From assembly GCA_000165345.1 (NCBI GenBank), contig CM000431.1:128001-192000 (forward strand): 64,000 bases of DNA. The letters run 5' to 3'. Below are positions 22,341 through 48,400 of this stretch, in pieces (the first letter of the stretch is position 1; each line of letters opens with the position of its first letter). The position numbers and the translations under genes are program-made. The notes under the pieces are model-generated. The model made no database searches. It had not been told where the DNA came from and was given only the letters and a program-made list of their open reading frames with translations.

Positions 22341-22383
22341 CGGCCCGCCGGCGCGGCATGTGTTTGTGGAACGGGCCCGCCGG
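22341..22383. promoter_or_regulatory. GC-rich island with a direct repeat GGCCCGCCGG (x2) and a GCGCGG core, in an otherwise AT-rich intergenic region upstream of SLC35C-like paralog 3.
   Basis: cggcccgccggcgcggcatgtgtttgtggaacgggcccgccgg. CCCGCC/GCGCG resemble E2F-type cores. Its GC content stands out strongly against the local background. Confidence 0.4.
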
Positions 22384-27558: not shown

Positions 27559-30500
27559 ATGAATGGATCTAAAAATAGACCATCTTTCTCTGTAAAGATC
27601 CTGTTGTTTTTTCTAACTTCTGGATATCTTATTTTTAGTCCTGTGGTATTTGGTATTGGATTATCACAAGAACAGACAGGATTTACTGGATATGATAGTC
27701 CTATCCAAGAAACAAGTGGTTTAGAAGCCACTAACTATGAAGCCAGAGATTATTCTACCATTTTTGGACAGGATGCAAGTTCCTCGCCAGAGTCTAAAAC
27801 TCTGGGGGAACTTTCTAGAGTAAAATCTAGGTCTGCAGATAGAAGTCCAAGCTTGCCATATTCTCAAGAACCTTCTATGGAACTTGAAAACAGCATATCA
27901 AAAAGCCCTTCAGCATTCCCTAATCAATCTCAACAATACTCTCCAGTTTATGAACAAAGCCCATCAAAAAATTCAAGATTTGTATTAAAAAGAGAGAACT
28001 CTTTACTTGGTGAATTAAGTAAAAGTAAAAGTTCTTCTAAATCTAAATCTCCACAGAAAAAAATACCCTCTAAAGACAAAAAACGACCTTTAGTGGTTTC
28101 TTTGTCTTCTGAAGCTTCCCATTCAGAGAGGTCTAAGTCCAGATCTCCTTCTAGATCAAGTTCTAAGTCTAGATCCAAGTCTAGATCCAGATCAGAGTTG
28201 TCAAAGTCAAGAACGGGATATGGTGGTGAAATGTCAATTTCCAGCCCTGAAATTTCTCCAGTCAAGACCGAGAAATCCAGATCCAAATCAAGGAAAGAGA
28301 GCTCTAAGAGACCTTCTACTCCAGAATCTGAGTTTTTAAAGGAACAAGAAGTTTCCTCTTCTCAAAATATGGGAAACATTATTCCCCTTACTGCTCCAGA
28401 TATGTCACCATCTCCAAAGTTTTCCTTTAATGAAGTTTCTCCTTCTAATAGGGTTGAAGCCTCTAATATTGAAGCTTCAGCATCTCCATCTACCTTATTG
28501 GATCAATCTATTCCACAAGAAGCTTCTGTTAGTTCACCAGAATCCAGTTCTCTCCTTTCTGAAGAATTAAGTGTAAAAGAAGATGGGTCCCTGAATGCAA
28601 CTCAAATGCCAAGTAGAAAGTCATCAGGAACTTCTGAATCTGTTTCTGCTCGTCCATATACACCAGTTGACGAAGGTTCTGAATTCTCTACTTTATTGGA
28701 TGGAAGTCTTTCTTCAAATGAGCCGATAGATACGAGTCATCTACCTTTGGAAGTTGCTTCAGAATCCAGTATTGGCTCCAATTATATGACTTTATTAAGT
28801 TCTCTATATGGAATGCAGGCCTTATCAGGAGTTCCACTTGACTTTTCAGAAGAGCTTTTTAGAATTGAAATCTTAGTTAGTGAAGCTCTTTATAATACAG
28901 GATTGAGTATTTCTAATGCTGATGTTACACTTCTTACAAAAAGAGTTGCTCTGGTGGATTCTTCTGACAAAAACAACTCATTTGGAGCTCAAGTACATCC
29001 AAACTCTTTTGAAAAGATTCCATCATTCCCCAAAGTTACCTTTAATTTTGCTGAATGCGTTTATCAACTTGAAAATATTCTCTTCCATACAAGATCATTC
29101 ATCAAGCCTGTCTCAATGTCTCATATATTAAAAGGATGTGATCATATTAGATCCTCCTTAAATATTAGTAAACCTATTATGGAGAATAATGAAATCTTTA
29201 CAAAAGTTATTCAATATTTGATTCTCAGAATATACAATATAGGTAATCATGAAATTTTAAGTATTATTCATAAAAGAACCTCTATTCCAGCAATATTAGA
29301 TCTTACTGTATTTGAGAAATTGCAGAAATCATTGATTGAAGATTTTCTATCCGATTCCACTTCACTCCCTCTACCTGTTGAGTTCTGGAGAACTATATTT
29401 GTTCAACAACTACATTCTTTTAATTTATATTCAAAGGATCTAATTGGAGGACTTCTTGATGATCATTTTGGACTTATGGACATATTGTTGGATACAATGT
29501 ACTCAGATCCAATCAAAATGTGTCCATATATCACGTCTATTGTATTCTATAAAGTAAATCCATTCAAAATTGAAGATATTAGGATCAACTCAGCTAAGAT
29601 ACAAACTTTCTGTCTCATATACCTCAAGAATATGGGCTTAAATGAATTAGTTACCTTAAACAAATTGAATATGCCTACTCTCAGTAGAAACTCCAGACTT
29701 GATCAAATCGCCAAACAATTAGCTCCAGGCTTTGAAATTCTTCCATATTTCCATCCAGATTTTCCTAAAGATGGCAATGATCTTACTTGGGAAACTTGTT
29801 ATTCTATCTATTCCTCAGTATCAATGATGCTTAATTCTCTTCAGCTTGATCTAATATTCCCTCAGATCTCACCTTTATGTACCAAGATTACCAAAAAACC
29901 TCCTAGTCCAAAATTTATATTGGGAATGTTTTCAAGGATTCTTGATATACCTAGTACAATTCAGAATAGTCTATTGGAAATTCAAGATATTGATCAGATC
30001 ATTTCCTCTCTCTCGGTACAACTTAAACTACCTGAAACTCATTTAAGAGAAATTTATACTGATTATATTCAAGGAAACCCAATAAAGTACTTAAATACAA
30101 TATATACCATTTTAACCAAATCTCTCAAATTTTACTTTGGATTTGATTCAAACCAAGAATCTAATAGACAAAGAAACTCAAATAAGACCTTTGAACAACT
30201 ATTTCTTACCAGAAATATCTCAGAAAATACACAAATGTTTGAAAGACTGAATTATTGGAGTACAATTCACCTTTATTTCTTGTCTTTTACTATGGGAATC
30301 CCTAATTCATCTGAAATCCTAAGTGGTATCTACTCATTTACTCCATCTAATTGTGAATCCCTTTTATTCTCCTTCTTTAGAAGAGTCTCTTATTCAACAA
30401 GATCCAGTATTGCTGATAGTCTTACTTTGTGTATTACAATGTATTCTGTTATTTACAAAAACAACATTTCTTCAGTTCTGGTTAAAAATATATCAATCAA

Positions 30501-33500
30501 AGAACTTAGAGATGCTCTTAATTATAAGATCGGTACCTGGACTCCAACACAAAATGAATGGATGAGATCAATTTACATGGTCTTTGAAAATAAGTTGGAG
30601 ATTATTCCTAATATTTCAAATATTCAAACCCTCAGTTTGACAATCAATGAAGACTTTTTTAATTGTTTCTATTCTGTAAATAAGTATCTTCATGGAATGG
30701 TTACAGTTACTAGGTTTAAAGATATTAAAACTCCAAATCTAGAAAATAGAATACTCAATGAAAGGAGTCTTGGATTCAACCTTTGTTCTTCCATGAGTAT
30801 TGGAGCTCATAGTACTAGAGAAGAAGCTATTGAACTTAGAATCATTTCTACCGTTATTGAAGCTGTAAGACAGTTTGGGTTTAAGATTGATATTGAATAT
30901 ATTAAAGAGTTTATTAACAATTATAAGCTATCAAACAATTCAGCATTTCCTTCTGGAAGGATAATTCTGGATAATATAATCTCAAAGTTCCCAAATACCC
31001 TTGGGACAGCTATTAAAAAAGCTTTCCAGGCTAATTCATCCTCATCCAATTCACTTCCCTACTTTATTCAAGCTGAAAGAATCATTTCAAAAACATTAGA
31101 GTCTCGAGGATGCTTTATTCAGAACAAAGAAACTAGTATTGATGGAAGGAGTTTTGAATTGAGTAGAGATATATCAATTTCTCCAGGAAATAAAAATGTC
31201 TCATACTATAATACCATTAATTCATGTCTTTCTTGGAAAACTTTTGGATATTTTAATCTGATTTCATGTTATTCTGTTCTAGTGAATTCTGGAACTTGTG
31301 AATCAAAAGACGTTATCTTAGAGGCTATGGTTGAAATAGCAGAAAGACTCGAATGGCCAAGAGAACTTATTCTACTGATTCTTTCACAAGATTTTTCTCT
31401 CTCAGATTCTAATGTATTCCAAAAAATTAAACAAAGTACTGATCAAGAGGAATTTGAGAAGTATTTACAAATTATTCAAGATCTTATAGTACATGTGGAG
31501 GAACATGTTAATGACTTTTCATGGTCTGAGAAATCTCTGTCAAATCCCAAAGATGAATCTTACGTACTTGCAGAACCTTCAGAGGTTAGTATTAGTAAGA
31601 GCCAAACTCAGAAGATTAACTATTCATTTGCATTTGGATTTAGTAAGGATTCTATTGGTGATTATTTGAGATTATGGGAATACAGAAAAGAGATAGTTCT
31701 AAACCAAATCATGAGTTTTCCTGTGAATCCTTCTCTATCACTCACAAAGGATGAAATCTCATCTCTTCTTATGGACTCTTCACCTCAAAATATCAATAAA
31801 TTTGTGAATTCAAAAATGACTCCTTTTGCTAATAAGATCAAAGAGTTATGTTACAAAGAACCTCATGGATCTTTCCTCTGTGAGATTAAGACTCAAATTG
31901 GACTTCCACCTTTGAAGATTTATGGAAAAGGATCAAATATGATTTCAACTTCTATTTCAGTCATGAATCCTCCTAAAGAGTTAGGACAAGAAAATCTTTT
32001 AGTGTTAATGATTGCAACTCCATCAAAATCTTCAATTAAGTGGGAAAAATTAGAACCACAATCTCTGCTTTTCTTAAGCGTGTTAATGGGTCCAAAATGG
32101 GAAAAAGAGCTTAAAAGATACACTCAACTTTCCGTTAAGTATTTCCCATACTCTGGAGAGTATATTAGACTAACTCCTCCAGTATTTAAGATAGAAACTA
32201 AGGAGAGTATAATTCAAGAAACTTCAGATTTGTTGGATTCATCAATTTCAGCTTCTATTTCGCGCTCCCCAAGTACCAAAATGTCAAAGGCTTCAGTACT
32301 TCCAGGAGTATGGCATGAACACTTAGGAAATATTTCAATCCAGAAGCTCGTAGATTTCTCAAAGTTTGTTCCAGATAACTCAAACTTATTGATTAACATT
32401 GTTTGGACATTAGCTTCTGCTTTTAATTCATTATGGGTAGGAGGAGTGGAACTTTGTCAAATAGACTTAAAGTCCATATATGCTTATTTAGGAAGTCAAA
32501 ACCAACAGAGCTTGAATATGGGAAAGATTTTAGATGAATTTCTTGAATTTGGGCCAAATGAAGAAAACGTACATTCACTAACAAACTTTGTTCTCCATAC
32601 GTTATCTCCTCCTTTGATTCGGTTTAGTGAACTTGGGAGAAGCAGAGTACACTCCGTGACAGAATCGTCAATTGAAGCTTCTCAGTCCAAAATAAATGAA
32701 TGCAATGATCAATTGGAAGTCATGAACATCTTTAAGAATATATTAAGCTCAACAGACTTATCTGGAAAGATTAAAGGCCAAAATCTTGAGACTATTTGTC
32801 GTGAGATCTCTGAAATAGATCCCACTAAGCTTGATTGTAGCTCTTTGGCTTGGGCAAGGGAAAATAGTAGAATTCCTAATGATCTTGACAAATGGCCAAT
32901 TACAGATATTCCAATAGTTTCTCCAACTCTCAAACAGCAGGAAGTTGAAATTCCGACTTCTGTTAATCCAAATGAAGAGTTTTCAAACCCTGAATCTAAA
33001 TATTCGGAACAAAGCAGAAGCCTTTTAGAGTCTGCACCAACAATTCCTGTCTATATTCCTCCATCTGCTCCATCCATTCCTCCTTCCATTCCTCCACCAA
33101 TTCGTCAATCTGTTCGTCACCCTATTCCCCCATCTATTTCTGCTTCTGAACCAAGTGCAAAGGAAGTCGTGACAGAAGAGTCTCAAAAGAAAGAATTCTC
33201 TCCAGAATCACCTCCATCCGAAGAATCCGAGGTTGAAGGAACATCCACAAACGAAATCTTTGATCAAGCCTCTGTGGATCAGGGTGATTCCTCGGTATTT
33301 GTTACTAATCCTATACTACCACCACCTCCTACTAGTACCATAGTAAAGCCTTATAAGCCAGAGGATCTAAATGAATTTACTCTAGTCAAGGTTCCAAAAG
33401 GGCAACTTATGAATCTTCATATCTATCCAAGGATTACAGGAAATCTTTCAGAACAGAGGAAATTTGAAATTAAAGAATTACTAACAACATTAAAAGGAGT

Positions 33501-34416
33501 TGCTGAGGAATTGATATCTAAGTTCACTTCCTGGTCAGCTTCTATTTCAAGAAAACACTCTTCCATAGTTCCAGATGTTAATTTCAAGCCATCCTTTATT
33601 TTTGTTCCTCCTACACCAAATAATAGAGCTGACTCTCCGAGAATCTTAGAGAAAGAATTCTATATCCATGAATCCGTGTTCTTATTTGCCAGAGAGGAAC
33701 TTCAGAGAATTGAGCTTCCTATGCAACAAATTAGAAATGAGGACCTGGTAGAGGTGAAAATGAGCAGAGCAAGCCTTGCTTTTATTAACAATAATAAACA
33801 AGCTCCTCCAAGTATTACAATACCTCAAGCTCCTAGTTTTCCAGATATTAGACCCAATATCTCTCCAATCTCCCAAGCTCCTTCCTCTATTGGAGGGTTT
33901 AATGATAATGAAATCTCTCATTTAGTCTCGAATATTGAGAAAAAACCTGGTAAATACAAAGAGTCTATAGAAAATACTCAGAGAAGCTCAGAACTAAGTA
34001 ATTCTCTTGAGAAAAAGTCCGATATTAGTTTATCAAGTGGAAGTTTAGGTCAAGGAAGTGAGTCTTCTCAAAGAGAAATGAGTTCTGAGTCAGTTATAAA
34101 GGAGAATTCGGAAGAAAATGTCTCTGAATCTCAGAGATCAATATCACCAAAGTCAAATTTAGAGTCAGAAAATATTCAGGGATTATCAAATGGACACGAA
34201 TATGGGTATAGCACAGATTCAAGTATTACAAAAGGCGAAAAAAATAATTCTAACTCTTTAGCACAAGAAAATAGTCCGAATTCAGACTCCAATTCTCACA
34301 ATTCTCAACCAGAAATGTCTAGCCTCAAGTCTGAATCATCTTTGGATTTTGGATCCAACACTGACTTATCGAGTTCAGACTCAAAATCAGTCTCAGGGTC
34401 TAACTCTGGAGAATAA
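27559..34416 (+). CDS. Large (2285 aa) secreted Ser-rich protein of unknown function with SKSR/SR-like low-complexity tracts.
   Basis: Single 6.9-kb ORF. The N-terminal hydrophobic segment (ILLFFLTSGYLIFSPVVFG) acts as a signal peptide. The N-terminal 250 aa are Ser/Lys/Arg-rich (SKSKSPQKK..RSKSRSPSRSSSKSRSKSRSRSELSKSR). The central 1500 aa have ordinary composition and no motif I recognise. The C-terminal 300 aa are again Ser/Pro-rich. Confidence 0.6.
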   Translation: MNGSKNRPSFSVKILLFFLTSGYLIFSPVVFGIGLSQEQTGFTGYDSPIQETSGLEATNYEARDYSTIFGQDASSSPESKTLGELSRVKSRSADRSPSLPYSQEPSMELENSISKSPSAFPNQSQQYSPVYEQSPSKNSRFVLKRENSLLGELSKSKSSSKSKSPQKKIPSKDKKRPLVVSLSSEASHSERSKSRSPSRSSSKSRSKSRSRSELSKSRTGYGGEMSISSPEISPVKTEKSRSKSRKESSKRPSTPESEFLKEQEVSSSQNMGNIIPLTAPDMSPSPKFSFNEVSPSNRVEASNIEASASPSTLLDQSIPQEASVSSPESSSLLSEELSVKEDGSLNATQMPSRKSSGTSESVSARPYTPVDEGSEFSTLLDGSLSSNEPIDTSHLPLEVASESSIGSNYMTLLSSLYGMQALSGVPLDFSEELFRIEILVSEALYNTGLSISNADVTLLTKRVALVDSSDKNNSFGAQVHPNSFEKIPSFPKVTFNFAECVYQLENILFHTRSFIKPVSMSHILKGCDHIRSSLNISKPIMENNEIFTKVIQYLILRIYNIGNHEILSIIHKRTSIPAILDLTVFEKLQKSLIEDFLSDSTSLPLPVEFWRTIFVQQLHSFNLYSKDLIGGLLDDHFGLMDILLDTMYSDPIKMCPYITSIVFYKVNPFKIEDIRINSAKIQTFCLIYLKNMGLNELVTLNKLNMPTLSRNSRLDQIAKQLAPGFEILPYFHPDFPKDGNDLTWETCYSIYSSVSMMLNSLQLDLIFPQISPLCTKITKKPPSPKFILGMFSRILDIPSTIQNSLLEIQDIDQIISSLSVQLKLPETHLREIYTDYIQGNPIKYLNTIYTILTKSLKFYFGFDSNQESNRQRNSNKTFEQLFLTRNISENTQMFERLNYWSTIHLYFLSFTMGIPNSSEILSGIYSFTPSNCESLLFSFFRRVSYSTRSSIADSLTLCITMYSVIYKNNISSVLVKNISIKELRDALNYKIGTWTPTQNEWMRSIYMVFENKLEIIPNISNIQTLSLTINEDFFNCFYSVNKYLHGMVTVTRFKDIKTPNLENRILNERSLGFNLCSSMSIGAHSTREEAIELRIISTVIEAVRQFGFKIDIEYIKEFINNYKLSNNSAFPSGRIILDNIISKFPNTLGTAIKKAFQANSSSSNSLPYFIQAERIISKTLESRGCFIQNKETSIDGRSFELSRDISISPGNKNVSYYNTINSCLSWKTFGYFNLISCYSVLVNSGTCESKDVILEAMVEIAERLEWPRELILLILSQDFSLSDSNVFQKIKQSTDQEEFEKYLQIIQDLIVHVEEHVNDFSWSEKSLSNPKDESYVLAEPSEVSISKSQTQKINYSFAFGFSKDSIGDYLRLWEYRKEIVLNQIMSFPVNPSLSLTKDEISSLLMDSSPQNINKFVNSKMTPFANKIKELCYKEPHGSFLCEIKTQIGLPPLKIYGKGSNMISTSISVMNPPKELGQENLLVLMIATPSKSSIKWEKLEPQSLLFLSVLMGPKWEKELKRYTQLSVKYFPYSGEYIRLTPPVFKIETKESIIQETSDLLDSSISASISRSPSTKMSKASVLPGVWHEHLGNISIQKLVDFSKFVPDNSNLLINIVWTLASAFNSLWVGGVELCQIDLKSIYAYLGSQNQQSLNMGKILDEFLEFGPNEENVHSLTNFVLHTLSPPLIRFSELGRSRVHSVTESSIEASQSKINECNDQLEVMNIFKNILSSTDLSGKIKGQNLETICREISEIDPTKLDCSSLAWARENSRIPNDLDKWPITDIPIVSPTLKQQEVEIPTSVNPNEEFSNPESKYSEQSRSLLESAPTIPVYIPPSAPSIPPSIPPPIRQSVRHPIPPSISASEPSAKEVVTEESQKKEFSPESPPSEESEVEGTSTNEIFDQASVDQGDSSVFVTNPILPPPPTSTIVKPYKPEDLNEFTLVKVPKGQLMNLHIYPRITGNLSEQRKFEIKELLTTLKGVAEELISKFTSWSASISRKHSSIVPDVNFKPSFIFVPPTPNNRADSPRILEKEFYIHESVFLFAREELQRIELPMQQIRNEDLVEVKMSRASLAFINNNKQAPPSITIPQAPSFPDIRPNISPISQAPSSIGGFNDNEISHLVSNIEKKPGKYKESIENTQRSSELSNSLEKKSDISLSSGSLGQGSESSQREMSSESVIKENSEENVSESQRSISPKSNLESENIQGLSNGHEYGYSTDSSITKGEKNNSNSLAQENSPNSDSNSHNSQPEMSSLKSESSLDFGSNTDLSSSDSKSVSGSNSGE

Positions 34417-34613: not shown

Positions 34614-36089
34614 TCACTTAATTAAAGAAGTCTTTTTGTTAATAGAGAAGAAGTAGGTAGAGTTGTGGGAGTTCCAACGTTTTGTGTATAATAGTATAAA
34701 TATAGAGAGAATTAAGATGAAGGAATTAATAATAATTGCAATAATAGTTGGAAAGAAGAAGTTATCTTTATAGTTTCTATGAATAAAAGAGTCCCAAAGA
34801 TTGTATACTAAGGTAAAGAATCCTGCAATTGTGGAAGAAATACCTTGAATTGAATTTAAGTGAGTATAACCAAATGCGGAAGTAAAGAGACTGAAGGAAC
34901 ATCCAATAAAGTAGGAATAGCAGAATACACAAATGACAATTCCAAATAAATGTGATAAGAAGCAATACGGAATAAAGTTGGCAAAAAGGACCAAAATTAA
35001 TAGAGAAGATGCAACAAACAAAACCAAAAATAAGTAGATACCCATTAGATCTACAAAGATACCCACTAAAATAGCTGCAATAAATGTAGTTCCAAGCAAA
35101 AGACCAAATATATTTATAATAGATTCAGAGTATTGTAAGTCTCCAGAAGTCTGATCAAGTAGAATTGATTTCATATTGACAGTAAAGTAAAGCCTTACAA
35201 ACCACATTAAAGAGTATATAATAGTAAAAAGAATGGTTGGAATAGAAATAAGCTGCTCTTTGAATGTTAAAGTCCACTGATAAGGAATATCTTCTTTACA
35301 TCTATTAACTTCAACAACCATTTGACTATTAATTAATGAAAGACGCTCCTCATGATCAAATTCAGTAAGAGAGTTCATAATTTGAGATCTGGAAATAGAA
35401 ACTCTTGTACAATAATCAACAGTTGGAGTGACAAAAGGATGTTTAGGAATAATAAAGTAGAATCCAATCATCCAGAGAATTGAAAAGAAACAATTGATAA
35501 TTATAATAAATTGTGTAGGATTAATTCCTAAATAATGGAAATCAATACCTTTAGAAGAAATATAACGAACTAAATTAACCATAATTTGCATATAAGCGAA
35601 ACTCATTCCAACAGAACCTCCCACCATTGCTACAACAAGATGTTTCTTTGAATCATAAAACACAGAAATAGAAGTCTTTGTTAAAGTTAGAAGTTGTGTA
35701 GAAATTCCCCACAAACATATTCCAATATATGGAAAGTAGAACCAAGTTTTATCCAAAAAAAAGCAGAAAATCCATCCCATAATGTGAAATGCTGCTGATA
35801 GAATAGCTGTATTCCTATTATTAAATAAATCCACAAAATAAGCACCCAAAACTCCTGATAATAGAAGTGAAGATGTACCAAGAGAACATAGACTATTCAT
35901 TGTAGTTAGCTTGAAGTCAGGATCTAACCAGTAATAGGCATCGTTATTCATTAATAATTCCTTTACAGCAGATGGCAATAAATATGGTGCTCCCACCATT
36001 GGTGCAGAAACCACATAAAATAATAATAATGTGGTACTGGAAAATCCCGATTTGGTTTGATTCTCACAAGTAAATGGTTTTTCCATCAT
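34614..36089 (-). CDS. Multi-pass membrane transporter, MFS-like. It forms a head-to-head pair with the gene at 36602..38083.
   Basis: 491 aa with about 12 predicted helices. A conserved-looking loop GVLGAYFVDLFNNRNTAIL resembles the MFS/MCT-type G..D.FG.R motif. Its architecture resembles the divergently transcribed neighbour. Confidence 0.5.
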   Translation of the reverse strand: MMEKPFTCENQTKSGFSSTTLLLFYVVSAPMVGAPYLLPSAVKELLMNNDAYYWLDPDFKLTTMNSLCSLGTSSLLLSGVLGAYFVDLFNNRNTAILSAAFHIMGWIFCFFLDKTWFYFPYIGICLWGISTQLLTLTKTSISVFYDSKKHLVVAMVGGSVGMSFAYMQIMVNLVRYISSKGIDFHYLGINPTQFIIIINCFFSILWMIGFYFIIPKHPFVTPTVDYCTRVSISRSQIMNSLTEFDHEERLSLINSQMVVEVNRCKEDIPYQWTLTFKEQLISIPTILFTIIYSLMWFVRLYFTVNMKSILLDQTSGDLQYSESIINIFGLLLGTTFIAAILVGIFVDLMGIYLFLVLFVASSLLILVLFANFIPYCFLSHLFGIVICVFCYSYFIGCSFSLFTSAFGYTHLNSIQGISSTIAGFFTLVYNLWDSFIHRNYKDNFFFPTIIAIIINSFILILSIFILLYTKRWNSHNSTYFFSINKKTSLIK

Positions 36090-36601: not shown

Positions 36602-38083
36602 ATGGCTGGCTCAGAAACGGATAAGCGTAGAGCCTCAGGACGAAGAGGAAGCCTTGAAAGTGGCAGAGGAGATTCTCTTGGGAAAAATTCAAATGAGTCA
36701 AATCCAGGAGTTTTCAGAGAGATGTTCGGAACAAAGGAAAATCCTACAGTTATTCCATTTAAATCCATAATTAAGAATCCAAAGATTTATTTTCCAATTA
36801 TTGCACTTACAGCAACTCTTACAGCAGGTCATATTCAAAATCCAGATGCAACCAGAGAACTATTCTTTAAAAGTGGTGCATTTTCTTTTGCTCCTGAAAT
36901 GCTTGAGTCAGGAGAAGCTTTCTTTACCATCAACAATGTTATGTCCGTTGCTAATGGAGCAGTTTTCATTGGTCATATGATTGCAGGTTCTATAATTGAT
37001 AAATTTGGTTTACTCCCATGTGCATTGGTAGGCCATATTTTGTCTATTTTTGGATATACCTTAATGTTTTTATTACATTTCTCTTCCTATGCATATTATT
37101 TTGCTGGTATATGTTTTGGTATTTCTCTATCATGTACTTTTGCATCCAGATCCAGATTTATGCAGATGTTCCCAAAGGTCAAGAACACTGTTGGAATGCT
37201 TCTCACAATTGGTATGGATTTTTCTCTATTATTCCCCTTACTTCAAGATAAGCTTTCAGAACTCTTTGGTGGTACCAAGATTGTAATGACTAGTATGGTA
37301 ATTATCCAAGCAATAATACTCATTCACCATGCATTTATATTCCCATATGGTAAGCTACCTGATAGAATGGAGTATAAAAACTCTAATAATTCACGTAATC
37401 TTGAAGATGAAACCACTGATCTTATTCAAAAGGATGAAACTGAAGAAATTGAACAAGATGGAATTCAAGGTTACAGAGAACTTTCTTGCATTAGGAAGAT
37501 TTTCTCGCTACCTTTCATTGCCTTCTTTATTTATATGTTATTCTTTGCCTTATCTAGAATTCATTACCAACTCTTCTTCAGAAGTACTTGCTTGATGAAC
37601 ATTAGCGACCAAGTAAGCGCTAAAAAAGCTGCAGATTATGGAAATATTGTATATTCATTAGCATCTTACTTATCTCTTGCTTGGGGTTACATTGTAGATT
37701 ACAATGGACTTATTATTACAATGCAGTACCAAATCGCATTACTTATTGGAGCTTACTTCTGCGCAGGATTCAAGTCTGTGAGCAACATTATCCCTCAAAT
37801 CTTATCCAATGTATTTGCTGGTCTTTATACATGTTTTGCTAATTCTTTAACTTATAGTTTCGTAGCTGGTGTGTTTGGCTACGAAAGCTTTGGTGTTGTA
37901 CAAGGTTTAGCTTCTCTTTCAGCATTTGCTTCACTTATGTCAATCAATTACTGGCAGAACTTCTTGGAGAACGTTTTACAAAGAGATTACAATCTTGCGA
38001 ATAAACTTATCATGTATGCCGCCATTGTAATCCTTGTAATTTTATTCATATTAAGAATGATTTACGTTAGAAAAAGCAAGTAA
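36602..38083 (+). CDS. Multi-pass membrane transporter, MFS-like (probable paralog of 34614..36089).
   Basis: 493 aa with about 12 helices. GSIIDKFGLLPCALVG resembles an MFS/MCT signature. It has a Ser/Arg-rich N-terminal tail and is transcribed divergently from its neighbour off a shared E2F-motif promoter. Confidence 0.5.
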   Translation: MAGSETDKRRASGRRGSLESGRGDSLGKNSNESNPGVFREMFGTKENPTVIPFKSIIKNPKIYFPIIALTATLTAGHIQNPDATRELFFKSGAFSFAPEMLESGEAFFTINNVMSVANGAVFIGHMIAGSIIDKFGLLPCALVGHILSIFGYTLMFLLHFSSYAYYFAGICFGISLSCTFASRSRFMQMFPKVKNTVGMLLTIGMDFSLLFPLLQDKLSELFGGTKIVMTSMVIIQAIILIHHAFIFPYGKLPDRMEYKNSNNSRNLEDETTDLIQKDETEEIEQDGIQGYRELSCIRKIFSLPFIAFFIYMLFFALSRIHYQLFFRSTCLMNISDQVSAKKAADYGNIVYSLASYLSLAWGYIVDYNGLIITMQYQIALLIGAYFCAGFKSVSNIIPQILSNVFAGLYTCFANSLTYSFVAGVFGYESFGVVQGLASLSAFASLMSINYWQNFLENVLQRDYNLANKLIMYAAIVILVILFILRMIYVRKSK

Positions 38084-38500: not shown

Positions 38501-40153
38501 TTACTTTCTTCTTGAGCTAAAATTACACGATGGAACCCCCATGAACTGCTCAGCTGTATAACGTTTAAGTATCTTGCATGCTTCTAACAAAGCTTGCTTT
38601 TGGTCGATAAATCTACAGGGATATTTGTCGATTTCCTGATGTAATCTTCTAGTTTTTTTGTTAACTCTTTTAACTCTACATGATTCCCACTGATGGACGC
38701 TTCTAATAGCTGCCTTTAGTTTGCTAAGCTTCATGTTATAATACTTAATGAGCGACCTTATATTATTTATATCATCAGGCTTAACATCTTCACTAAAAAT
38801 CTTTTCTTCTTCCGGTAGAAATGATGGTGGCTTAGCAGGAGCAGTAAGTGGGTCTAAAATTCTAAAATCTAATAGGCCTATATCTTCATATGGTCTTCTC
38901 TCATACTTTCTACATGGATCATTTTCATATTGGATTTCATGGCTGTTCATAGAAATTGTATTCCCGATATCAATAATTTTCATAGAAGTTGGAGTAACTG
39001 CAGCTAATTCAAACATTGTATTAATAGTCTTCCATTTATCAGAACCAAAGTTTGGATCAATGGAAATCATAATATTTCTAGTATGCAAATCACAATGGAC
39101 TTTATTACCATTTTGTAACATGAACATAGCGGCAGTATAAAAAGGAAGCCATATTCCTCTAAGCATCCTTCTATACCATCTACCTACCTGTACCTTTTGC
39201 TCTTGGAATTCCTTCCCAATTAATAAATCATATAATAAGTTTTCATCCTTTAAAACAACAATAACTTTAATATAAGGAATGGCATCCAATTTTTCAATAA
39301 AAAGCATTTCATTAAATACTTCGTTCCCATTTTTATCATTAATGACATAATACTTGGGATGGAGACTCACTCTGACTTCGGGAGTTTTAGAATTTGCTTT
39401 ATAAGAATAACTTAATTGAGAAATTCTCATAGCTCTCTCCAGTTCATTGTAAAGTCTTGCAGGACGAAGGTTAAAGTAGGTATCAATTTTTGCCAAGATA
39501 TGAAAGGATGTGATTGGTTGTACTTTGCTTCCCACAGAACAGTCATATAATTTTTGAGCTAAATCAGGGTTTTTTGGATCCCCCTTTAAAACTTGATTAC
39601 GTGGGAGTACTAAGCAATTCTCCATAACAGTATATTGTAATGTTGAAGTAACAAAGAGTATTGCATATACAAGAGCTGAATTTGCTCCTTCCAAGTTCAA
39701 CTTCCAATTCACCAAAACAGTTTTCTCAGAACTACCTTCTACAGCTTTTTTGGTAATTTGATTAATTTGTGGAACAGATACAACCTTCTGATTCTTATCA
39801 CTTTCACATTTCAAGAAGAAGAATTTCTTTTTGCCTTCTCCTTTAAGAACATTTTGTCCATTACAAATCTCCACAACTCTACCTATACTATGTGCTTTCA
39901 TCGGATTGATACCTCTCAACTCCTCAACCGAGTTTATGCCTTCTTCTCCAGCAGAGTTGGACTCCTTCTTCGAGGAGTCTGAAGAGACCTTTGAAGTACC
40001 TTGAGGAGTTAATCCAGATCTTTTTCTTAGACCACTTTTGTTTCCAGATCTAGAATCGGCAGCTTTGACTATTGATAATTCCTGAATTAAAGTAATCCAT
40101 AGTATCAGTTGTAGTAATAGCAGAACCAAACTGGATTCCTTCACAAAATTCAT
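38501..40153 (-). CDS. Secreted divergent protein-kinase-like protein lacking a glycine-rich loop (FIKK/WNG-like atypical kinase or pseudokinase).
   Basis: 550 aa with an N-terminal signal peptide (LVLLLLQLILWITLIQELSIVKA). Candidate beta3 lysine in KKKFFFLKCE. Catalytic-loop-like HCDLHTRNIMISIDP (the HxDLxxxN pattern). DIG replaces DFG (KIIDIGNTIS). There is no GxGxxG. Confidence 0.45.
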   Translation of the reverse strand: MNFVKESSLVLLLLQLILWITLIQELSIVKAADSRSGNKSGLRKRSGLTPQGTSKVSSDSSKKESNSAGEEGINSVEELRGINPMKAHSIGRVVEICNGQNVLKGEGKKKFFFLKCESDKNQKVVSVPQINQITKKAVEGSSEKTVLVNWKLNLEGANSALVYAILFVTSTLQYTVMENCLVLPRNQVLKGDPKNPDLAQKLYDCSVGSKVQPITSFHILAKIDTYFNLRPARLYNELERAMRISQLSYSYKANSKTPEVRVSLHPKYYVINDKNGNEVFNEMLFIEKLDAIPYIKVIVVLKDENLLYDLLIGKEFQEQKVQVGRWYRRMLRGIWLPFYTAAMFMLQNGNKVHCDLHTRNIMISIDPNFGSDKWKTINTMFELAAVTPTSMKIIDIGNTISMNSHEIQYENDPCRKYERRPYEDIGLLDFRILDPLTAPAKPPSFLPEEEKIFSEDVKPDDINNIRSLIKYYNMKLSKLKAAIRSVHQWESCRVKRVNKKTRRLHQEIDKYPCRFIDQKQALLEACKILKRYTAEQFMGVPSCNFSSRRK

Positions 40154-41084: not shown

Positions 41085-42428
41085 ATGTTTGAGTTAAAAT
41101 TCTTATTTTTGTTTTTGGCCCTGGCTTTACTTAGAAATGCTGCTGGAGATGAGTTTTCAGACTATTCTATATTTCAAAGCCCCGAAAGCTCTACTGAGCT
41201 TTCAGGTGGTAGCCTGGGAATGCTAAATTTTGGCCAAAAACAATCCCTAGAGGACACAACTTTTGATACACAAAGCCAAGTTCTTCTTGACCATTTTCAA
41301 GATCCAAATGAACCATCAACAATTGGTAATATGATTTCCGAAAATAATTACCCAGTTGAAAGAAAAGAAATTATTGGATCTTTTGATGATAAATACAAAG
41401 AAAGCCCATATTCAGAAACTTCTATGTCATCTAGAAGAGGAAAAAGATCTCAAAATATTTTTTCCATCAATAAAATCTTGTCAAAGTACTCAAAAGAAGA
41501 ACTTGCATTGCTTAATGAGTATTTGATATCATTCTCTATGCTCCTAAAAAGGAGATTTAGGAAATTCATCTTCAAAAAGTATAGTCCCTCACGAATTAGA
41601 TCTCAATTTGCCAAGATGTATGTTGATAAGTTTGGAGGAAGCAAATCTAAGGCTTTACTTAAGCTTAGAGAGTTTGAGAAAATACTAAGTCTCAAACATT
41701 CTGCTGCAAGAAGACTTTTTCATAGTCAATTCAATCTTTTAATATCAACACTTAATTCAGCAGAAGCACTTATTTATTTAACAGAAAAATGGAGGTACCA
41801 ACCAACTTATATTAGTGAACCTCTTCTAGTTGTAAGCAAAAGCTCTTACAATAAACTAATGAATCTATGTAAGAAAAAATCAAGAAAAACCAAAATTGTA
41901 CTTGTCTCAGCCTCTTCTGAACTTATTCCAAAGAAATTCCGTAAGTCAGATCTAAATGATTCATTTCAAGAGCTTTCAAAGTTTAGCAAAACCATTCATT
42001 CCTTCCAAGAATCTGCTTCTTCTGGAGGAGCTGATTCCAAATTAAGCTTGGGAACAACTCAATGCAATTGGGATTCTTCTCGAAAGAAAAAAGCTAAATT
42101 CACAAAAAGTAGTCTTAAATGCTTTTTCAAGCCTAAAAAGCGCTCATTCTTTCATATCCATTACTATGATATCACGAATACTGCAAAGTTCAAATACTTA
42201 ATGCAAGTCCTCCTCAGGTATAAGCCTAATCCCTATTCTCAGAATGCTTACCCTCTCATTATTATACCAGTATTAATTGGGATTCCCCAAATTGATAAAA
42301 ATGGGTCCATTTTAGGGCTTAATTCTATTACAGAAGTCACAAAAAAGAAGAGAAAGTATGGAAAATCCTTCAATCATAGAAACAAAAAGAAATCTAACAA
42401 GAAAAAAAGAACTAAACTCGGAAAATAG
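41085..42428 (+). CDS. Secreted Lys/Ser-rich protein of unknown function.
   Basis: 447 aa. The N-terminal LKFLFLFLALALLRNAAG is a signal peptide. It has a basic C-terminus (KKKRKYGKSFNHRNKKKSNKKKRTKLGK) and no recognisable domain. Confidence 0.5.
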   Translation: MFELKFLFLFLALALLRNAAGDEFSDYSIFQSPESSTELSGGSLGMLNFGQKQSLEDTTFDTQSQVLLDHFQDPNEPSTIGNMISENNYPVERKEIIGSFDDKYKESPYSETSMSSRRGKRSQNIFSINKILSKYSKEELALLNEYLISFSMLLKRRFRKFIFKKYSPSRIRSQFAKMYVDKFGGSKSKALLKLREFEKILSLKHSAARRLFHSQFNLLISTLNSAEALIYLTEKWRYQPTYISEPLLVVSKSSYNKLMNLCKKKSRKTKIVLVSASSELIPKKFRKSDLNDSFQELSKFSKTIHSFQESASSGGADSKLSLGTTQCNWDSSRKKKAKFTKSSLKCFFKPKKRSFFHIHYYDITNTAKFKYLMQVLLRYKPNPYSQNAYPLIIIPVLIGIPQIDKNGSILGLNSITEVTKKKRKYGKSFNHRNKKKSNKKKRTKLGK

Positions 42429-45487: not shown

Positions 45488-48400
45488 ATGGATGTAATAG
45501 AAGCAGGAGATGTTGTGGAAAAGCCATCTCCAGATGTTTTTCGCTCAAGTAGGCAATTTTTGGACTCTGAGGTGAAGTTAATAGAAGAAATAAAACATAA
45601 TTTTTTGGATACAGTAGGTTATATGGAATTTCGAAAATTTAGCAGAAAACACCAGGGAGTATTTAGAGATGTTGCAAGGGCTTGGACTTTGATTTTGTTA
45701 GTACTTTGTGGATTTTTCTCAAATCTGCTATTTTTTTCTTCATGTCCAAATTTGGGAGATATAGCAGCACATGGGTTGTTTTACAAGGGATATAATTTGA
45801 TAATATTATGCGTTGAAATCGGAATGATAGTGACTACATCATTTTGGCTGCTAATGACTCAGTTCCAGACTGGAGTAGTTTACTCGTTTAGATTGAGCGT
45901 TTTATACACAGCTATTACATTTCTATTATTTATTTTGAGGACAACAATTTCAGATTCAGAAAACTCAACAATTCTACAAAAATGTGACTATATTTTGAGT
46001 AATGGAGAGGTGATCGTTTACAATATAATTCCGCTCATATATATTACGTTACAGTTCTTAATTTCTTTTATTTCATTTTTTTACTCAAAACTGAGACCAA
46101 TCATAGCTGTATATTACTTTAAGCATCCTTGGTTCCTCAAGTCTTGGAAATTTGTAAATATTGAGCCTGTAGAGTTAAAATTACTTTCTTTTGGAAAGAG
46201 GTTTGATGGGAGCAGAAATATTAGTCCAAGAAATACAAGTTCAAAGTATTGTGAAAAAAGCGAGTCAGAGGACAAGACGAGCTCTGAAGGTATGAAAGGA
46301 GGATATTCAAGCGATACAAAAATGTTTTGGGATACGGAAAGTGATAACCAGAATATCAGATTAGCTTCTGGTTATTTCATTGAGATTAAAAGGTTTAGTG
46401 TAAGAAAGCTACTGAAAAAGTTGAATCCGATAAGATTGGATTTGCTTTTAACTTTTAGAACAAGAAAGGATAGAGGTAGAAGACCAAATTCTTTGAAAAA
46501 CCAGGGATGCAGCATAAATAGTTGGTATTTGGGAGAAATTAATGAGGAAGGAAGGCCTCATGGTTTTGGAAGATGGAGGGAGGATGATTACTACGGCGAG
46601 ATTCTCGTTGGGTTTTGGAAGAATGGGCATCCTGTTGGACCATTTAAAACAAGAGAGTGTAGATCAGGGAGTGGCTTTATTTGTTTGAAGCTAGGATTCT
46701 GTCGAACAGAGGCAAATTTGACTCCTAATCTATATGGTTATGCAGATATTGAATGCAGTGTTTCTGGTCAATTCTTTAGAGGGTTTCCTTTATGCCATAT
46801 TTATCCGGCTCCGTCAATAGGAATGAATAGAAGTGGATCAATCTTTGCGAGAATTGGGGCTAAAGGAAAGGCAGCATTAGATGATACAACTCAAAAGGGC
46901 AAGAAAATGGTTGGTGCAGTGTTTAATAGTTCTTGGTTTAAGAAAATAAGGAAAAAGGACAAAGATAAGAAGACCGCATTAGAGAAGAAGGAGAGCATTT
47001 TAGATTCTAAAAAGGTGGTTAGGCTTAATTTAGATAATATTGAAGGTAATAGTGATAAGATGGAGTCAAATGAATTAAATAGTTTATCAATTGATATACC
47101 GTCAGGAAATGAGCAAAATTTAAAGGAAGTAGAACCCAAACTGTCATCAGGGATGTGTAAAAGTGAAATGAATTTAAGCTTACAGAAAAAAGGAGTTCAC
47201 ATGATCCGTAAAGTTAGACAAAAGCTAAGAAGGAACCAAAACAGACAGGACAAGGAGCGTGATTTGTCTCTTCTGTGGGTTTTCCAAAATTTATCCCCAC
47301 ACATTCCGATGTTTACAATCCACCCTAAGAATGAAGTCACTATTTTGGTTGATGCAGAAAGGGGTTTGTATATTGCCGGATACTTTCCAGTATCAGAAGT
47401 ATTACGTTATACAAAACAAACAGGAGCGAGGTTGGCTTTGAGCAACCAGGATCCTGAGAGTTTGCTAAGCGAAAATAACCTAAAGAGTACAATTTTGGGC
47501 CCGAATGATGCCATTAGTGGGCTTATTCCGTTCTCAAGCTCATTTTCGAGCTCCTCCATTATCAAAGCTTCTCAGTATCCTCTAAATAGGCCTCAAGATA
47601 ATAGGTACTTGGAGTCTGTTGAAGTTAGGGTAGTTGATAGATATTGCAATGATTCCGTCTTCTCAAAAGATGCTTTAGATGAAAACCAGGATAATACCGT
47701 ATACTACCCAGAGTTGGAAGTCAAGAATTGGATTCATAGCGATGGACTTCATGCGGCTGAGGCGCTGATATTTATTCATGGGTATAATAACACAATAATG
47801 GATGCTTTAAGGCAAGTTGGACAGATGATTGCTTTTGGAAACTTTCCCTCGTATATAAAACCTATGGTATTTTCTTGGCCATCAGGAAATTCCTTCTTAG
47901 AGTATTTCAAGGCTAGAAAGAGTGCAGAAAGTCCTCACACTCATAATTCACTTTACCAACTCATATTAGGGTTAAAGAATAGAGGAATTCGACATATCCA
48001 CATTATGACTCATTCAATGGGAACTAGATTATTCATCCAGTCGTTCCCTAAGCTTTTATCAGAGAATTTACTTGAAAGATGTGAACAGCATGATCATAGA
48101 TCAAGCATTGATCCTGGAAATTATTTGGGTCTTCGTCATTCTGAGACTCAGTTCGGAGACGAGATTAATCCAATTATTAATGAAAAGGTTCAAATAGTTT
48201 CAATGACTTTCTTGAATCCTGATTATTACTTGGATGACTTTATTAACAAAGCTTTCCCAATGTTAAGGCAATACTGTAATTTAATTACTATGTATGGAGA
48301 TAGCCAAGATGGTGCTCTAAAGTGGAGTGAAATCATTCAGGGTAGGAAAGCTCTCGGCTGCAACGTTTTTGGATTGCATTACGGGACTATTGGGAGCTTT

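What the first reader, a model, noticed from the sequence alone, without database searches (positions are those of the whole stretch)
38501..40153. Secreted glycine-loop-less kinase-like protein
A signal peptide is followed by a domain with a kinase catalytic-loop-like HCDLHTRNIMI, a DIG (DFG variant) in KIIDIG, and a candidate beta3 lysine in FFFLKCE. There is no GxGxxG loop. The architecture matches apicomplexan exported or secreted atypical kinases (FIKK or WNG-like). It could be an active atypical kinase or a pseudokinase delivered to the host-parasite interface.
Basis: partly seen in the sequence, partly recalled or inferred. Interest (0 to 1): 0.6.

Follow-up and report, generated by a model that had tools for sequence, protein, structure and literature searches.

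The report
Divergent secreted kinase-like protein, Cryptosporidium
This is a real, strongly conserved Cryptosporidium-only gene for a secretory-pathway protein whose centre looks like a very divergent protein-kinase catalytic core without the usual ATP-binding glycine loop. The fold and the activity are still unproven, and it does not belong to the FIKK or WNG kinase families.

Summary
Window 38501-40153 (-) is an intact 550-aa ORF, identical to an annotated C. parvum chromosome 3 protein (inferred gene id cgd3_560). It has an N-terminal signal-like hydrophobic segment, HCDLHTRNIMI (353-363), KIIDIG (392-397) and FFFLKCE (111-117), and no GxGxxG.

Orthologues exist only in Cryptosporidium. The motifs and all ten cysteines are invariant in all ten aligned orthologue sequences.

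Kinase likeness is moderately supported. Profile-profile comparison with 18 protein kinases gives probability 73-80% (P about 1e-5), well above decoy and shuffle controls. Several alignments also place KIIDIG on DFG and RRPYE on APE with canonical spacing.

The support is thin. Pfam, HMMER against the PDB and an exhaustive HMM search find nothing. Two AlphaFold runs failed (pLDDT 40-43). The N-lobe register is ambiguous, so no beta3 lysine can be assigned.

FIKK and WNG membership is not supported.

Best reading: a genus-specific, disulfide-rich, luminal or secreted atypical kinase. A pseudokinase is the main rival. UniProt's automatic name already says "protein kinase domain-containing". I found no paper on this gene, and the inferred gene id is not in the 2011 kinome. 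Interest is moderate.

The parts
38501..40153 (-). Complete single-exon ORF of 550 aa plus stop; inferred gene id cgd3_560
   Evidence: The gene id is inferred from neighbours: cgd3_550 is an MFS transporter and cgd3_590 is the DUF900/PfQRP1 homologue.
40061..40153 (-). Residues 1-31, MNFVKESSLVLLLLQLILWITLIQELSIVKA: signal peptide, or possibly a signal anchor
   Evidence: It is the only strongly hydrophobic segment. V-K-A|A fits a signal-peptidase site and is conserved in orthologues. NCBI names the protein 'signal peptide-containing'.
39899..40060 (-). Residues 32-85: Ser/Lys-rich low-complexity linker, including the conserved LRK(R/K)SGLTPQGTSKVSS
   Evidence: Alignment. AlphaFold predicts no structure here, pLDDT about 25.
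39464..39898 (-). Residues 86-230: conserved N-terminal region of unknown fold with four invariant Cys (97, 116, 180, 205) and the highly conserved block NWKLNLEGANSALVY (149-163)
   Evidence: No similarity to the protein-kinase profile (P 0.66).
39803..39823 (-). FFFLKCE (111-117) with invariant K115, preceded by a conserved basic triplet.
   Evidence: No alignment covers it.
38864..39463 (-). Residues 231-430: putative protein-kinase-like core. The N-lobe register is uncertain. Alpha-E, catalytic loop, DxG and an APE-like motif are aligned.
   Evidence: phmmer hits to SIK3 and CDPK2. hhalign P 1.4e-5 to 2.9e-5, probability 73-80%. Controls. Extended alignments.
39065..39097 (-). HCDLHTRNIMI (353-363): catalytic-loop equivalent of HRDLKxxN. 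D355, H357, T358, R359 and N360 are invariant. It is non-RD (Cys replaces Arg).
38981..39055 (-). Residues 367-391 (PNFGSDKWKTINTMFELAAVTPTSM): conserved insertion between the strands equivalent to beta6 and beta7. Canonical kinases lack it.
   Evidence: A 19-22-residue gap opens here in the DYRK1A, GSK3B, EGFR and CMGC alignments. F369, G370, W374, T379, T387 and P388 are invariant.
38963..38980 (-). KIIDIG (392-397): DFG-equivalent metal-binding motif. D395, G397 and N398 are invariant.
38879..38923 (-). NDPCRKYERRPYEDI (411-425): the most conserved block of the protein. It aligns with the CMGC SRYYRAPE / P+1-APE segment, 26-28 residues after D395.
38504..38863 (-). Residues 431-550: C-terminal region with predicted long helices (465-491, 518-537), four invariant Cys (492, 513, 526, 543) and the conserved end LKRYTAEQFMGVPSC. 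It could not be aligned to kinase subdomains IX-XI.

Best explanation
The gene encodes a Cryptosporidium-genus-specific protein of the secretory pathway.

Layout:
- signal peptide (1 to about 31);
- Ser/Lys-rich linker (32-85);
- a Cys-containing N-terminal region (86-230);
- a very divergent eukaryotic-protein-kinase-like catalytic core (about 231-430);
- a helical, Cys-containing C-terminal region (431-550).

In the core, H353-C-D355-L-H-T-R359-N360 takes the place of the HRDLKxxN catalytic loop. D355 would be the catalytic base, N360 a metal ligand, and R359 sits where tyrosine-kinase-type loops carry their Arg. D395-I-G takes the place of DFG, after a conserved insertion of roughly 20-25 residues. 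R-R-P-Y-E (419-423) takes the place of APE.

There is no glycine-rich loop, and no lysine can be assigned to the VAIK position.

Most likely the protein folds in the ER with disulfide bonds and acts as an atypical, non-RD phosphotransferase, either in the lumen of the secretory pathway or after secretion. It would bind ATP in an open pocket without a Gly-loop, as WNG1 and the FIKKs do.

Shown: gene, conservation, motifs, collinear motif-level similarity to protein kinases.
Inferred: fold, topology, activity, location, substrates.
For: Gene and family:
- The ORF is intact and identical to the annotated protein.
- Orthologues occur only in Cryptosporidium, 49-89% identical.
- Synteny is kept in C. 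muris.
- The protein is 54% identical between C. parvum and C. muris. That matches the neighbouring transporters and hydrolase (47-58%) and far exceeds the two adjacent genes (35% and 24%), so it is under enzyme-like constraint.

Secretory features:
- N-terminal hydrophobic segment with an AxA-like site.
- All ten Cys are invariant.

Kinase likeness:
- The only two PDB phmmer hits at E<=10 are kinases (SIK3 at 0.11, CDPK2 at 0.16), and both put HCDLHTRN on HRDLKxEN.
- hhalign against 18 Pfam- or HMM-verified kinases gives probability 73-80%, P 1.4e-5 to 2.9e-5, score 45-46.
- Controls: the other 19 window ORFs reach at most 25.7, and 100 column shuffles reach at most 24.1.
- All 18 kinases tested singly align the catalytic loop in register.
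- The DYRK1A, GSK3B, EGFR and CMGC alignments also match KIIDIG to DFG. The GSK3B and CMGC alignments additionally match CRKYERRPYE to SRYYRAPE with canonical spacing.
- The DFG-APE segment alone gives P 0.035, in register.
- The catalytic loop, the DxG motif and the APE-like block are among the six most conserved 15-residue blocks.
- UniRef names the C. parvum, C. hominis, C. meleagridis and C. ubiquitum proteins 'Protein kinase domain-containing protein'.
Against: - Pfam gives no hit for any of ten orthologues, even at E<=10.
- HMMER profiles of the family or of its core find no kinase in the PDB.
- The C. muris and C. bovis orthologues give no kinase hit.
- An exhaustive HMM search of 1.8 billion representatives finds only the family itself.
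- The hhalign signal rests mainly on alpha-E plus the catalytic loop. Regions 86-350 and 367-550 are not significant on their own.
- N-lobe registers disagree between alignments, and the best phmmer alignment puts Ser263/His265 at the VAIK lysine position.
- The sequence after the APE-like motif is Pro-rich and shows no alpha-F DxWxxG.
- Two AlphaFold runs gave pLDDT 43 and 40, and Foldseek on the model returned noise. There is therefore no structural support.
- The match is weaker than the control between APH and protein-kinase profiles (P 3.4e-7).
- No experimental data on activity or location were found.
Confidence: 0.45

Rival explanations
1. Pseudokinase. The protein has the kinase-like fold but no longer binds ATP or catalyses phosphoryl transfer. 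It would work as a luminal or secreted scaffold, chaperone or regulator, as BPK1 and ROP5 do in Toxoplasma.
For: There is no Gly-rich loop. No lysine can be placed at the VAIK position, and the best N-lobe alignment puts S263/H265 there. The alpha-C glutamate equivalent is E/D282, not a strict Glu. The catalytic-loop Lys is His357. Pfam's kinase model does not recognise the protein.
Against: D355, N360 and D395-x-G397 are invariant down to 49% overall identity, and their blocks are among the most conserved in the protein. Several invariant lysines (K115, K222, K256) remain candidates for the ATP pocket. WNG1 and FIKKs are active without a Gly-loop. R359 occupies the position of the tyrosine-kinase-type catalytic-loop Arg (sequence, plus my own knowledge of HRDLAARN loops).
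Confidence: 0.25
2. Not a kinase fold. It would be an orphan, disulfide-rich Cryptosporidium secretory protein of another or new fold, in which an HxDLHxxN ... DxG ... PxE series occurs by chance or by convergence.
For: Every HMMER-level search is negative. Outside about 25 residues the similarity is not significant on its own. The core motif is expected about 3 times per proteome by chance. hhalign probability is only 73-80%. AlphaFold did not produce a kinase fold. No alpha-F equivalent is recognisable.
Against: The score lies far outside the decoy and shuffle distributions. Three kinase motifs occur in the right order, and the DFG-APE spacing is canonical. The segment before the loop aligns as alpha-E with 18 of 18 kinases. 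An independent automatic pipeline also named the protein a kinase-domain protein.
Confidence: 0.2
3. A small-molecule or glycan kinase of the APH/choline-kinase-like (ELK) branch of the kinase-like superfamily, acting on a luminal metabolite or glycan rather than on proteins.
For: The D-L-H-x-x-N catalytic loop is as close to APH-type loops as to protein-kinase loops. For example StrB has HGDLHHENIM, 7 of 10 identical, and hhalign with StrB alone gives P 3.4e-4. ELKs commonly lack a canonical Gly-loop and activation segment (my own knowledge). The YEDIGLLDFRI stretch resembles APH YQDIALATRDI (by eye).
Against: A five-member APH profile matches only 14 columns, with P 0.003-0.005 and probability 7-10%, against 73-80% for the protein-kinase profile. 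Pfam APH does not hit. The CMGC-like DFG-APE alignment favours a protein-kinase-type activation segment. The two reference profiles were of unequal size (18 against 5 sequences), so this test is not fully fair.
Confidence: 0.07
4. A member of the FIKK or WNG family.
For: It shares with both families the lack of a Gly-loop and an apicomplexan origin, and with WNGs and the exported FIKKs a secretory signal. F-L-K-C at 113-116 looks a little like F-I-K-K.
Against: FIKK: there is no FIKK motif. The catalytic triplet is HCD, not HLD. The sole C. parvum FIKK is cgd5_4390 and is cytosolic. hhalign against the CpFIKK N-lobe gives P 0.65.
WNG: the DFG Gly is retained rather than acidic. No BPK1 hit appears in any PDB search. 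The family is described only from coccidia.
Confidence: 0.03

Closest known systems
Eukaryotic protein kinase catalytic domain (Pfam PF00069), especially non-RD CMGC kinases such as DYRK1A and GSK3
   Same: Alpha-E followed by an HxDLxxxN catalytic loop (HCD, as in DYRK1A). A hydrophobic-K-I-x-D-x-G motif. An R-x-P-x-E segment 26-28 residues after the DxG aspartate. All are collinear.
   Different: No Gly-rich loop and no assignable VAIK Lys. The catalytic-loop Lys is replaced by His, with an Arg two residues later. A conserved insertion of roughly 20-25 residues sits between the beta6 and beta7 equivalents. There is no recognisable alpha-F (DxWxxG). It has a signal peptide and ten invariant Cys. 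It falls below the detection limit of Pfam and HMMER.
WNG kinases of coccidia (Toxoplasma WNG1/ROP35, WNG2, pseudokinase BPK1)
   Same: Secretory apicomplexan kinase-like proteins that lack the Gly-loop. WNG1 shows that catalysis without the loop is possible.
   Different: WNGs keep VAIK and HRD and carry an acidic residue in place of the DFG Gly; this protein has HCD and D-I-G. No detectable sequence similarity. WNGs are reported from coccidia only, and this family from Cryptosporidium only.
FIKK kinases (Plasmodium; single orthologue cgd5_4390 in C. parvum)
   Same: Apicomplexan, no glycine triad, variant DFG and APE motifs, non-RD catalytic loop.
   Different: No FIKK motif. HCD rather than HLD. 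No similarity to the CpFIKK N-lobe (P 0.65). The C. parvum FIKK is a different, cytosolic gene.
Metazoan secretory-pathway kinases (Fam20C, Four-jointed, VLK/PKDCC, POMK). The comparison rests on my own knowledge.
   Same: Kinase-like domains that work in the oxidising lumen of the secretory pathway or outside the cell. They have signal peptides or anchors, disulfides and non-canonical nucleotide-binding loops.
   Different: No sequence similarity to any solved member at E<=10. No DRHHYE-type motif (from memory). Not tested by profile comparison.
Aminoglycoside phosphotransferase / choline-kinase-like kinases (Pfam PF01636, PF04655)
   Same: HxDLHxxN 'Brenner' motif and no strict Gly-loop. StrB HGDLHHENIM is 7 of 10 identical to HCDLHTRNIM.
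   Different: Only the 14-residue loop aligns (P 0.003-0.005). The spacing from the Asn to the metal-binding Asp is 35 residues, against 12-13 in APHs. There is no Pfam hit.

Membership tests
Eukaryotic protein kinase domain (ePK, PF00069) | Matches the curated family model above threshold | tested here: not met
   No Pfam hit for any of 10 orthologues, even at E<=10. UniRef nevertheless names four orthologues 'Protein kinase domain-containing protein', presumably from another profile method.
Eukaryotic protein kinase domain (ePK, PF00069) | Glycine-rich loop GxGxxG (subdomain I) | tested here: not met
   No G.G..[GAS] in the protein. The stretch aligned to the loop is RISQLS.
Eukaryotic protein kinase domain (ePK, PF00069) | Invariant beta3 lysine (VAIK) paired with an alpha-C glutamate | tested here: inconclusive
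   N-lobe registers differ between alignments. The phmmer register gives S263/H265 at the Lys position and E/D282 at the Glu position. Invariant K115, K222 and K256 remain candidates.
Eukaryotic protein kinase domain (ePK, PF00069) | Catalytic loop HRDLKxxN with catalytic Asp and Asn (subdomain VIb) | tested here: met
   HCDLHTRN aligns in register with 18 of 18 kinases. D355 and N360 are invariant.
Eukaryotic protein kinase domain (ePK, PF00069) | DFG metal-binding Asp and APE motif at canonical spacing (subdomains VII-VIII) | tested here: inconclusive
   KIIDIG aligns to DFG in the DYRK1A, GSK3B, EGFR and CMGC alignments, and RRPYE to APE in the GSK3B and CMGC alignments. On its own the segment gives only P 0.035. 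An alternative D366-P-N-F-G was aligned to DFG in low-stringency runs.
Eukaryotic protein kinase domain (ePK, PF00069) | Bilobal kinase fold | not testable with these tools
   Both AlphaFold jobs gave pLDDT 40-43. Foldseek on the model returned noise, TM about 0.09.
FIKK kinases | Phe-Ile-Lys-Lys motif in subdomain II | tested here: not met
   FIKK is absent. The nearest string is FLKC at 113-116.
FIKK kinases | HLD catalytic loop and sequence similarity to the FIKK kinase domain | tested here: not met
   The loop is HCD, not HLD. hhalign against the CpFIKK N-lobe plus one relative gives P 0.65. Only the N-lobe fragment of CpFIKK was available.
FIKK kinases | One orthologue per non-Plasmodium apicomplexan genome | tested here: not met
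   That orthologue in C. parvum is cgd5_4390, on another chromosome.
WNG kinases | Lack of Gly-loop | tested here: met
WNG kinases | Acidic residue replacing the DFG glycine; conserved VAIK (Val-preferred) and HRD | tested here: not met
   The motif is D395-I-G397, with the Gly invariant. HCD stands in place of HRD. No VAIK could be assigned.
WNG kinases | Sequence relationship to BPK1/WNG1; N-terminal helical lid replacing beta1 | tested here: not met
   No BPK1 or other WNG chain appeared among PDB hits at E<=10 with the protein, the family profile or the core profile. The helical lid cannot be tested without a model.
WNG kinases | Secretion from dense granules into the vacuole | not testable with these tools
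   No localisation data were found for this gene.
APH / ELK kinases (PF01636) | Matches the family model; HxDxxxxN plus IDxx about 13 residues later | tested here: not met
   No Pfam hit. The APH profile matches only 14 columns. N360 to D395 is 35 residues.

The most novel reading that the evidence does not exclude
Cryptosporidium has no ROPK or WNG kinases reported. It may have evolved its own family of catalytically active secretory-pathway kinases that work without a glycine loop and without a canonical VAIK lysine. Such an enzyme would phosphorylate secreted parasite proteins or host-interface components. It would be a structurally new way of building a kinase ATP site and a parasite-specific drug target.
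Probability: 0.25. Interest if true: 0.7.

Novelty: new variant of a known kind. Interest (0 to 1): 0.42.

Why it matters
Secreted kinases are key virulence and vacuole-building factors in Toxoplasma (ROPKs, WNG1) and Plasmodium (FIKKs). None has been described for Cryptosporidium: a 2025 virulence review does not use any of these terms, and the 2011 kinome of 73 kinases does not list the inferred gene id.

If this protein is active, three things follow. It would identify the missing secretory kinase activity of a major childhood diarrhoeal pathogen. It would add a third, independent example of a kinase that works without a Gly-loop. And it would offer a target with no host homologue.

It is conserved about as well as the neighbouring transporter and hydrolase genes. 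That argues for a core function rather than a fast-evolving effector.

If it is a pseudokinase or not a kinase at all, it remains an uncharacterised conserved secretory protein of modest interest.

Tried and rejected
Structure:
- AlphaFold2 on the full length with a 10-sequence alignment gave pLDDT 43.
- AlphaFold2 on residues 86-550 with 15 sequences gave pLDDT 40. Neither model is usable.
I disregarded it and did not spend the other fold searches.

Sequence searches that found nothing relevant:
- Pfam on the protein and on all ten orthologues at E<=10.
- NCBIfam: only noise, such as Trm5b at E 0.002 against a cutoff of 500 bits.
- HMMER profiles of the family and of the core (268-432) against the PDB.
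- phmmer of the C. muris and C. bovis orthologues against the PDB.
- An exhaustive profile search of 1.8 billion representatives found only the family itself, so the alignment could not be deepened.

Searches that did not pay off:
- Using the kinase alignment as a query to collect diverse kinases returned only close PKA and CK1 relatives. Five were checked with Pfam and the rest against an HMM built from those five.
- Retrieving full-length CpFIKK with the fragment from the kinome supplement returned one 174-aa relative. The FIKK test therefore covers the N-lobe only.

Alignments I set aside:
- D366-P-N-F-G as the DFG equivalent, proposed by low-stringency hhalign runs. It lies only 6 residues after N360 and leaves no room for the beta6-beta7 hairpin. 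D395-I-G is preferred, but this is not settled.

Literature:
- Searches for cgd3_560, neighbouring ids and orthologue locus tags found nothing on this gene.
- Supplements of four papers either were not held as text or did not contain the id.
- The hyperLOPIT paper (Guerin 2023) is not held.
Full report
WHAT IS THERE

Window 38501-40153 on the minus strand is one uninterrupted ORF of 550 codons. Its translation is 100% identical over its full length to the NCBI protein 'putative signal peptide-containing protein [Cryptosporidium parvum]'. The same 90%-identity cluster holds the C. hominis, C. meleagridis and C. tyzzeri proteins.

The encoding contig is CP044420.1 (1.10 Mb) of assembly GCA_015245375.1, and the window covers roughly 131-195 kb of it. 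The neighbours fix the position:
- three tandem TPT transporters (cgd3_500 and cgd3_510 are 'GDP-fucose transporter');
- two MFS transporters (cgd3_550);
- a DUF900 hydrolase that is the PfQRP1 homologue cgd3_590.

Counting genes between these landmarks makes the target cgd3_560. That id is an inference, not a look-up.

CHECKING THE OBSERVATION

- HCDLHTRNIMI at residues 353-363;
- KIIDIG at 392-397;
- FFFLKCE at 111-117.

No G.G..[GAS] occurs anywhere.

The N-terminus (MNFVKESSLVLLLLQLILWITLIQELSIVKA|ADS) is the only strongly hydrophobic stretch. It ends in a V-x-A site that orthologues keep. I could not run SignalP, so a type II signal anchor stays possible.

The pattern H.D[LIVM][KHR]..N is expected 7e-4 times in a protein of this size and about 3 times in a whole proteome. 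The motif alone does not prove anything.

FAMILY AND CONSTRAINT

Word-seeded and exhaustive HMM searches found relatives only in Cryptosporidium. They include the C. parvum/hominis group, chipmunk genotype, C. ubiquitum, C. canis, C. felis, C. bovis, C. ryanae, C. muris, C. andersoni and C. serpentis, plus two unnamed assemblies, at 49-89% identity.

Invariant in all ten aligned orthologue sequences: D355, H357, T358, R359, N360, D366, F369, G370, D395, G397, N398, P421, Y422, E423, K115 and all ten cysteines.

The six most conserved 15-residue blocks are:
- NDPCRKYERRPYEDI (411-425);
- the C-terminal LKRYTAEQFMGVPSC;
- NWKLNLEGANSALVY (149-163);
- WYRRMLRGIWLPFYT (326-340);
- NGNKVHCDLHTRNIM (348-362);
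- PTSMKIIDIGNTISM (388-402).

Gene order is kept in C. muris. Between C. parvum and C. muris the protein is 54% identical. The flanking MFS transporters are 47-50% identical and the DUF900 hydrolase 58%. The two adjacent genes, one of which also has a signal peptide, are 35% and 24%. The gene therefore evolves like an enzyme or housekeeping gene, not like a fast-evolving effector.

IS IT KINASE-LIKE?

Negative results first.
- Pfam finds nothing for any of ten orthologues, even at E<=10.
- NCBIfam gives only noise.
- HMMER profiles of the family or of its core find no kinase in the PDB.
- The C. muris and C. bovis proteins give no kinase hit.
- Two AlphaFold2 runs failed (pLDDT 43 and 40), and Foldseek on the model was noise.

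Positive results.
- The only two PDB sequences that phmmer reports at E<=10 for the C. parvum protein are kinases: SIK3 at E 0.11 and CDPK2 at E 0.16. Both align HCDLHTRN with HRDLKxEN and FNEMLFIEKLD with the alpha-C/beta4 region.
- Profile-profile comparison of the ten-sequence family alignment with five kinases gave P 3.5e-4.
- With 18 kinases from all major groups it gave probability 73-80%, P 1.4e-5 to 2.9e-5, score 45-46. Five were verified with Pfam and the rest with an HMM built from those five.
- Controls: the 19 other ORFs of at least 200 aa in the window score at most 25.7 (P 0.044), and 100 column shuffles of the query score at most 24.1.
- Each of the 18 kinases on its own aligns the catalytic loop in the same register.
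- The DYRK1A, GSK3B, EGFR and CMGC-profile alignments open a 19-22-residue gap after IMISIDP and align SMKIIDIGN with xxKIxDFG. The GSK3B and CMGC alignments also align CRKYERRPYE with SRYYRAPE. That places the DFG and APE equivalents 26-28 residues apart, which is canonical.

Limits of the positive evidence.
- The signal comes mostly from alpha-E plus the catalytic loop.
- Residues 86-350 and 367-550 are not significant on their own.
- The DFG-APE segment alone reaches only P 0.035, though in the right register.
- The match is weaker than the control between APH and protein-kinase profiles (P 3.4e-7 over 159 columns).

UniRef's name for four orthologues, 'Protein kinase domain-containing protein', shows that an independent automatic method reached the same borderline call.

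I put the probability of a kinase-like fold at about 0.75-0.8 (the best explanation plus the three kinase-like rivals).

WHAT CANNOT BE ASSIGNED

The N-lobe register differs between alignments.
- phmmer and CK2 put IKVIVV on beta4 and E/D282 on the alpha-C glutamate. That leaves V-S-L-H265 where VAIK should be.
- The 18-kinase and tyrosine-kinase profiles put IKVIVVLKDENLLYDLL on beta5/alpha-D.
- The AGC/CAMK profile shifts the register again.

No lysine can therefore be assigned to beta3. K267 is K or R. No alignment reached K115.

After the APE-like motif the sequence is Pro-rich, and no alpha-F DxWxxG is recognisable.

An alternative DFG candidate, D366-P-N-F-G, appears in low-stringency alignments. 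It lies only 6 residues after N360, so I prefer D395-I-G.

MECHANISM

Shown: a conserved secretory-type protein that carries collinear equivalents of kinase subdomains VIa, VIb, VII and VIII.

Inferred: it folds in the ER with up to five disulfides. It uses D355 as catalytic base and N360 and D395 as metal ligands. R359 sits at the position of the Arg of HRDLAARN-type loops, in place of the catalytic-loop Lys. It would be a non-RD enzyme that does not depend on activation-loop phosphorylation, and it would bind ATP in an open site without a Gly-loop, as WNG1 and the FIKKs do.

Whether it acts in the parasite's ER/Golgi on secretory cargo or after release at the host interface is unknown. The enzyme-like conservation fits either.

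The main rival is a pseudokinase, given the missing Gly-loop, the unassigned Lys and the E/D at the alpha-C position. Then come a non-kinase fold and an APH-like small-molecule kinase. The D-L-H-x-x-N loop is 7 of 10 identical to that of StrB, but the APH profile aligns only 14 columns.

COMPARISON WITH KNOWN FAMILIES

It works like a divergent protein kinase and resembles the idea of WNG and FIKK kinases (apicomplexan, no Gly-loop). Membership of either family fails.

FIKK:
- no FIKK motif;
- HCD rather than HLD;
- C. parvum has its own single cytosolic FIKK, cgd5_4390;
- the CpFIKK N-lobe recovered from the kinome supplement shows no similarity (P 0.65).

WNG:
- the DFG glycine is retained rather than acidic;
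- no BPK1 hit appears in any PDB search;
- the family is described from coccidia only.

ROPKs are described as coccidia-specific.

Metazoan secretory kinases (Fam20C, VLK and others) are a functional analogy from my own knowledge. No solved member was hit at E<=10.

NOVELTY AND SCORE

The kinase-domain label already exists in UniProt's automatic naming, so the bare observation is not new to the databases.

I found no paper that mentions the gene or any orthologue locus tag. The inferred gene id is absent from the 73-member C. parvum kinome, supplement included. A 2025 review of Cryptosporidium virulence does not use the terms secreted kinase, pseudokinase, ROPK or FIKK.

I rate it a new variant of a known kind: a genus-specific family of secretory kinase-like proteins.

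Interest is moderate, 0.42. It is a worthwhile experimental lead, but the fold is not demonstrated and activity is unknown.

Noticed in passing
window 19172-24118 (+): Three tandem paralogous ORFs of the triose-phosphate/nucleotide-sugar transporter family (432, 394 and 389 aa; Pfam TPT). They correspond to the cgd3_490-510 cluster, two members of which a paper calls GDP-fucose transporters and lists among the most abundant transcripts in vivo.
   Followed up: partly
window 34614-36089 (-) and 36602-38083 (+); L004 11913-16614: Two divergently oriented MFS-transporter paralogues lie immediately next to the target. They are about 20% identical to each other's C. muris counterparts. C. muris carries an extra 400-aa copy related to the second one (53% identical over 266 aa) between them.
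   Followed up: partly
window 41085-42428 (+): The adjacent 447-aa ORF also starts with a signal-peptide-like segment (MFELKFLFLFLALALLRNAAG). It is Lys/Ser-rich, has no Pfam hit, and is only 35% identical to its C. muris counterpart, so it evolves much faster than the target.
   Followed up: partly
window 58718-59284, within the overlapping minus-strand ORFs 57529-58776 and 58754-59701: An imperfect tandem repeat array (periods 45 and 93 nt, 74-78% matches), strongly CT-rich on the + strand (AT skew -0.36, GC skew -0.30 for 58-60 kb). On the minus strand it would encode a Glu/Lys-rich repeat protein. ORFs are listed on both strands here.
   Followed up: no
window 63722-64000: A tandem repeat with a 53-nt unit (93% matches, about 3 copies) that continues as 28- and 40-nt periods to the window edge, just downstream of the AMP-binding (acyl-CoA synthetase-like) ORF 61397-63454.
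   Followed up: no
window 45488-49009 (+): A 1173-aa ORF with a DUF900 alpha/beta-hydrolase domain, matching cgd3_590. A paper lists that gene as the C. parvum orthologue of PfQRP1, the Plasmodium quinoxaline-resistance protein. It is 58% identical to the C. muris orthologue.
   Followed up: partly
window 27559-34416 (+) and 49529-53851 (+): Two very long ORFs (2285 and 1440 aa) with no Pfam domain at E<=0.001. The first gave the highest decoy score against the kinase profile (25.7, P 0.044), which I treat as noise.
   Followed up: no
window 24635-26782 (-): A 715-aa ORF with a PAN/Apple domain (E 3.9e-10), a domain type typical of apicomplexan adhesins.
   Followed up: no
window 56001-62000: The intergenic and repeat-rich stretch has very low G+C (0.19-0.28, against 0.31-0.39 for most of the window).
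   Followed up: no
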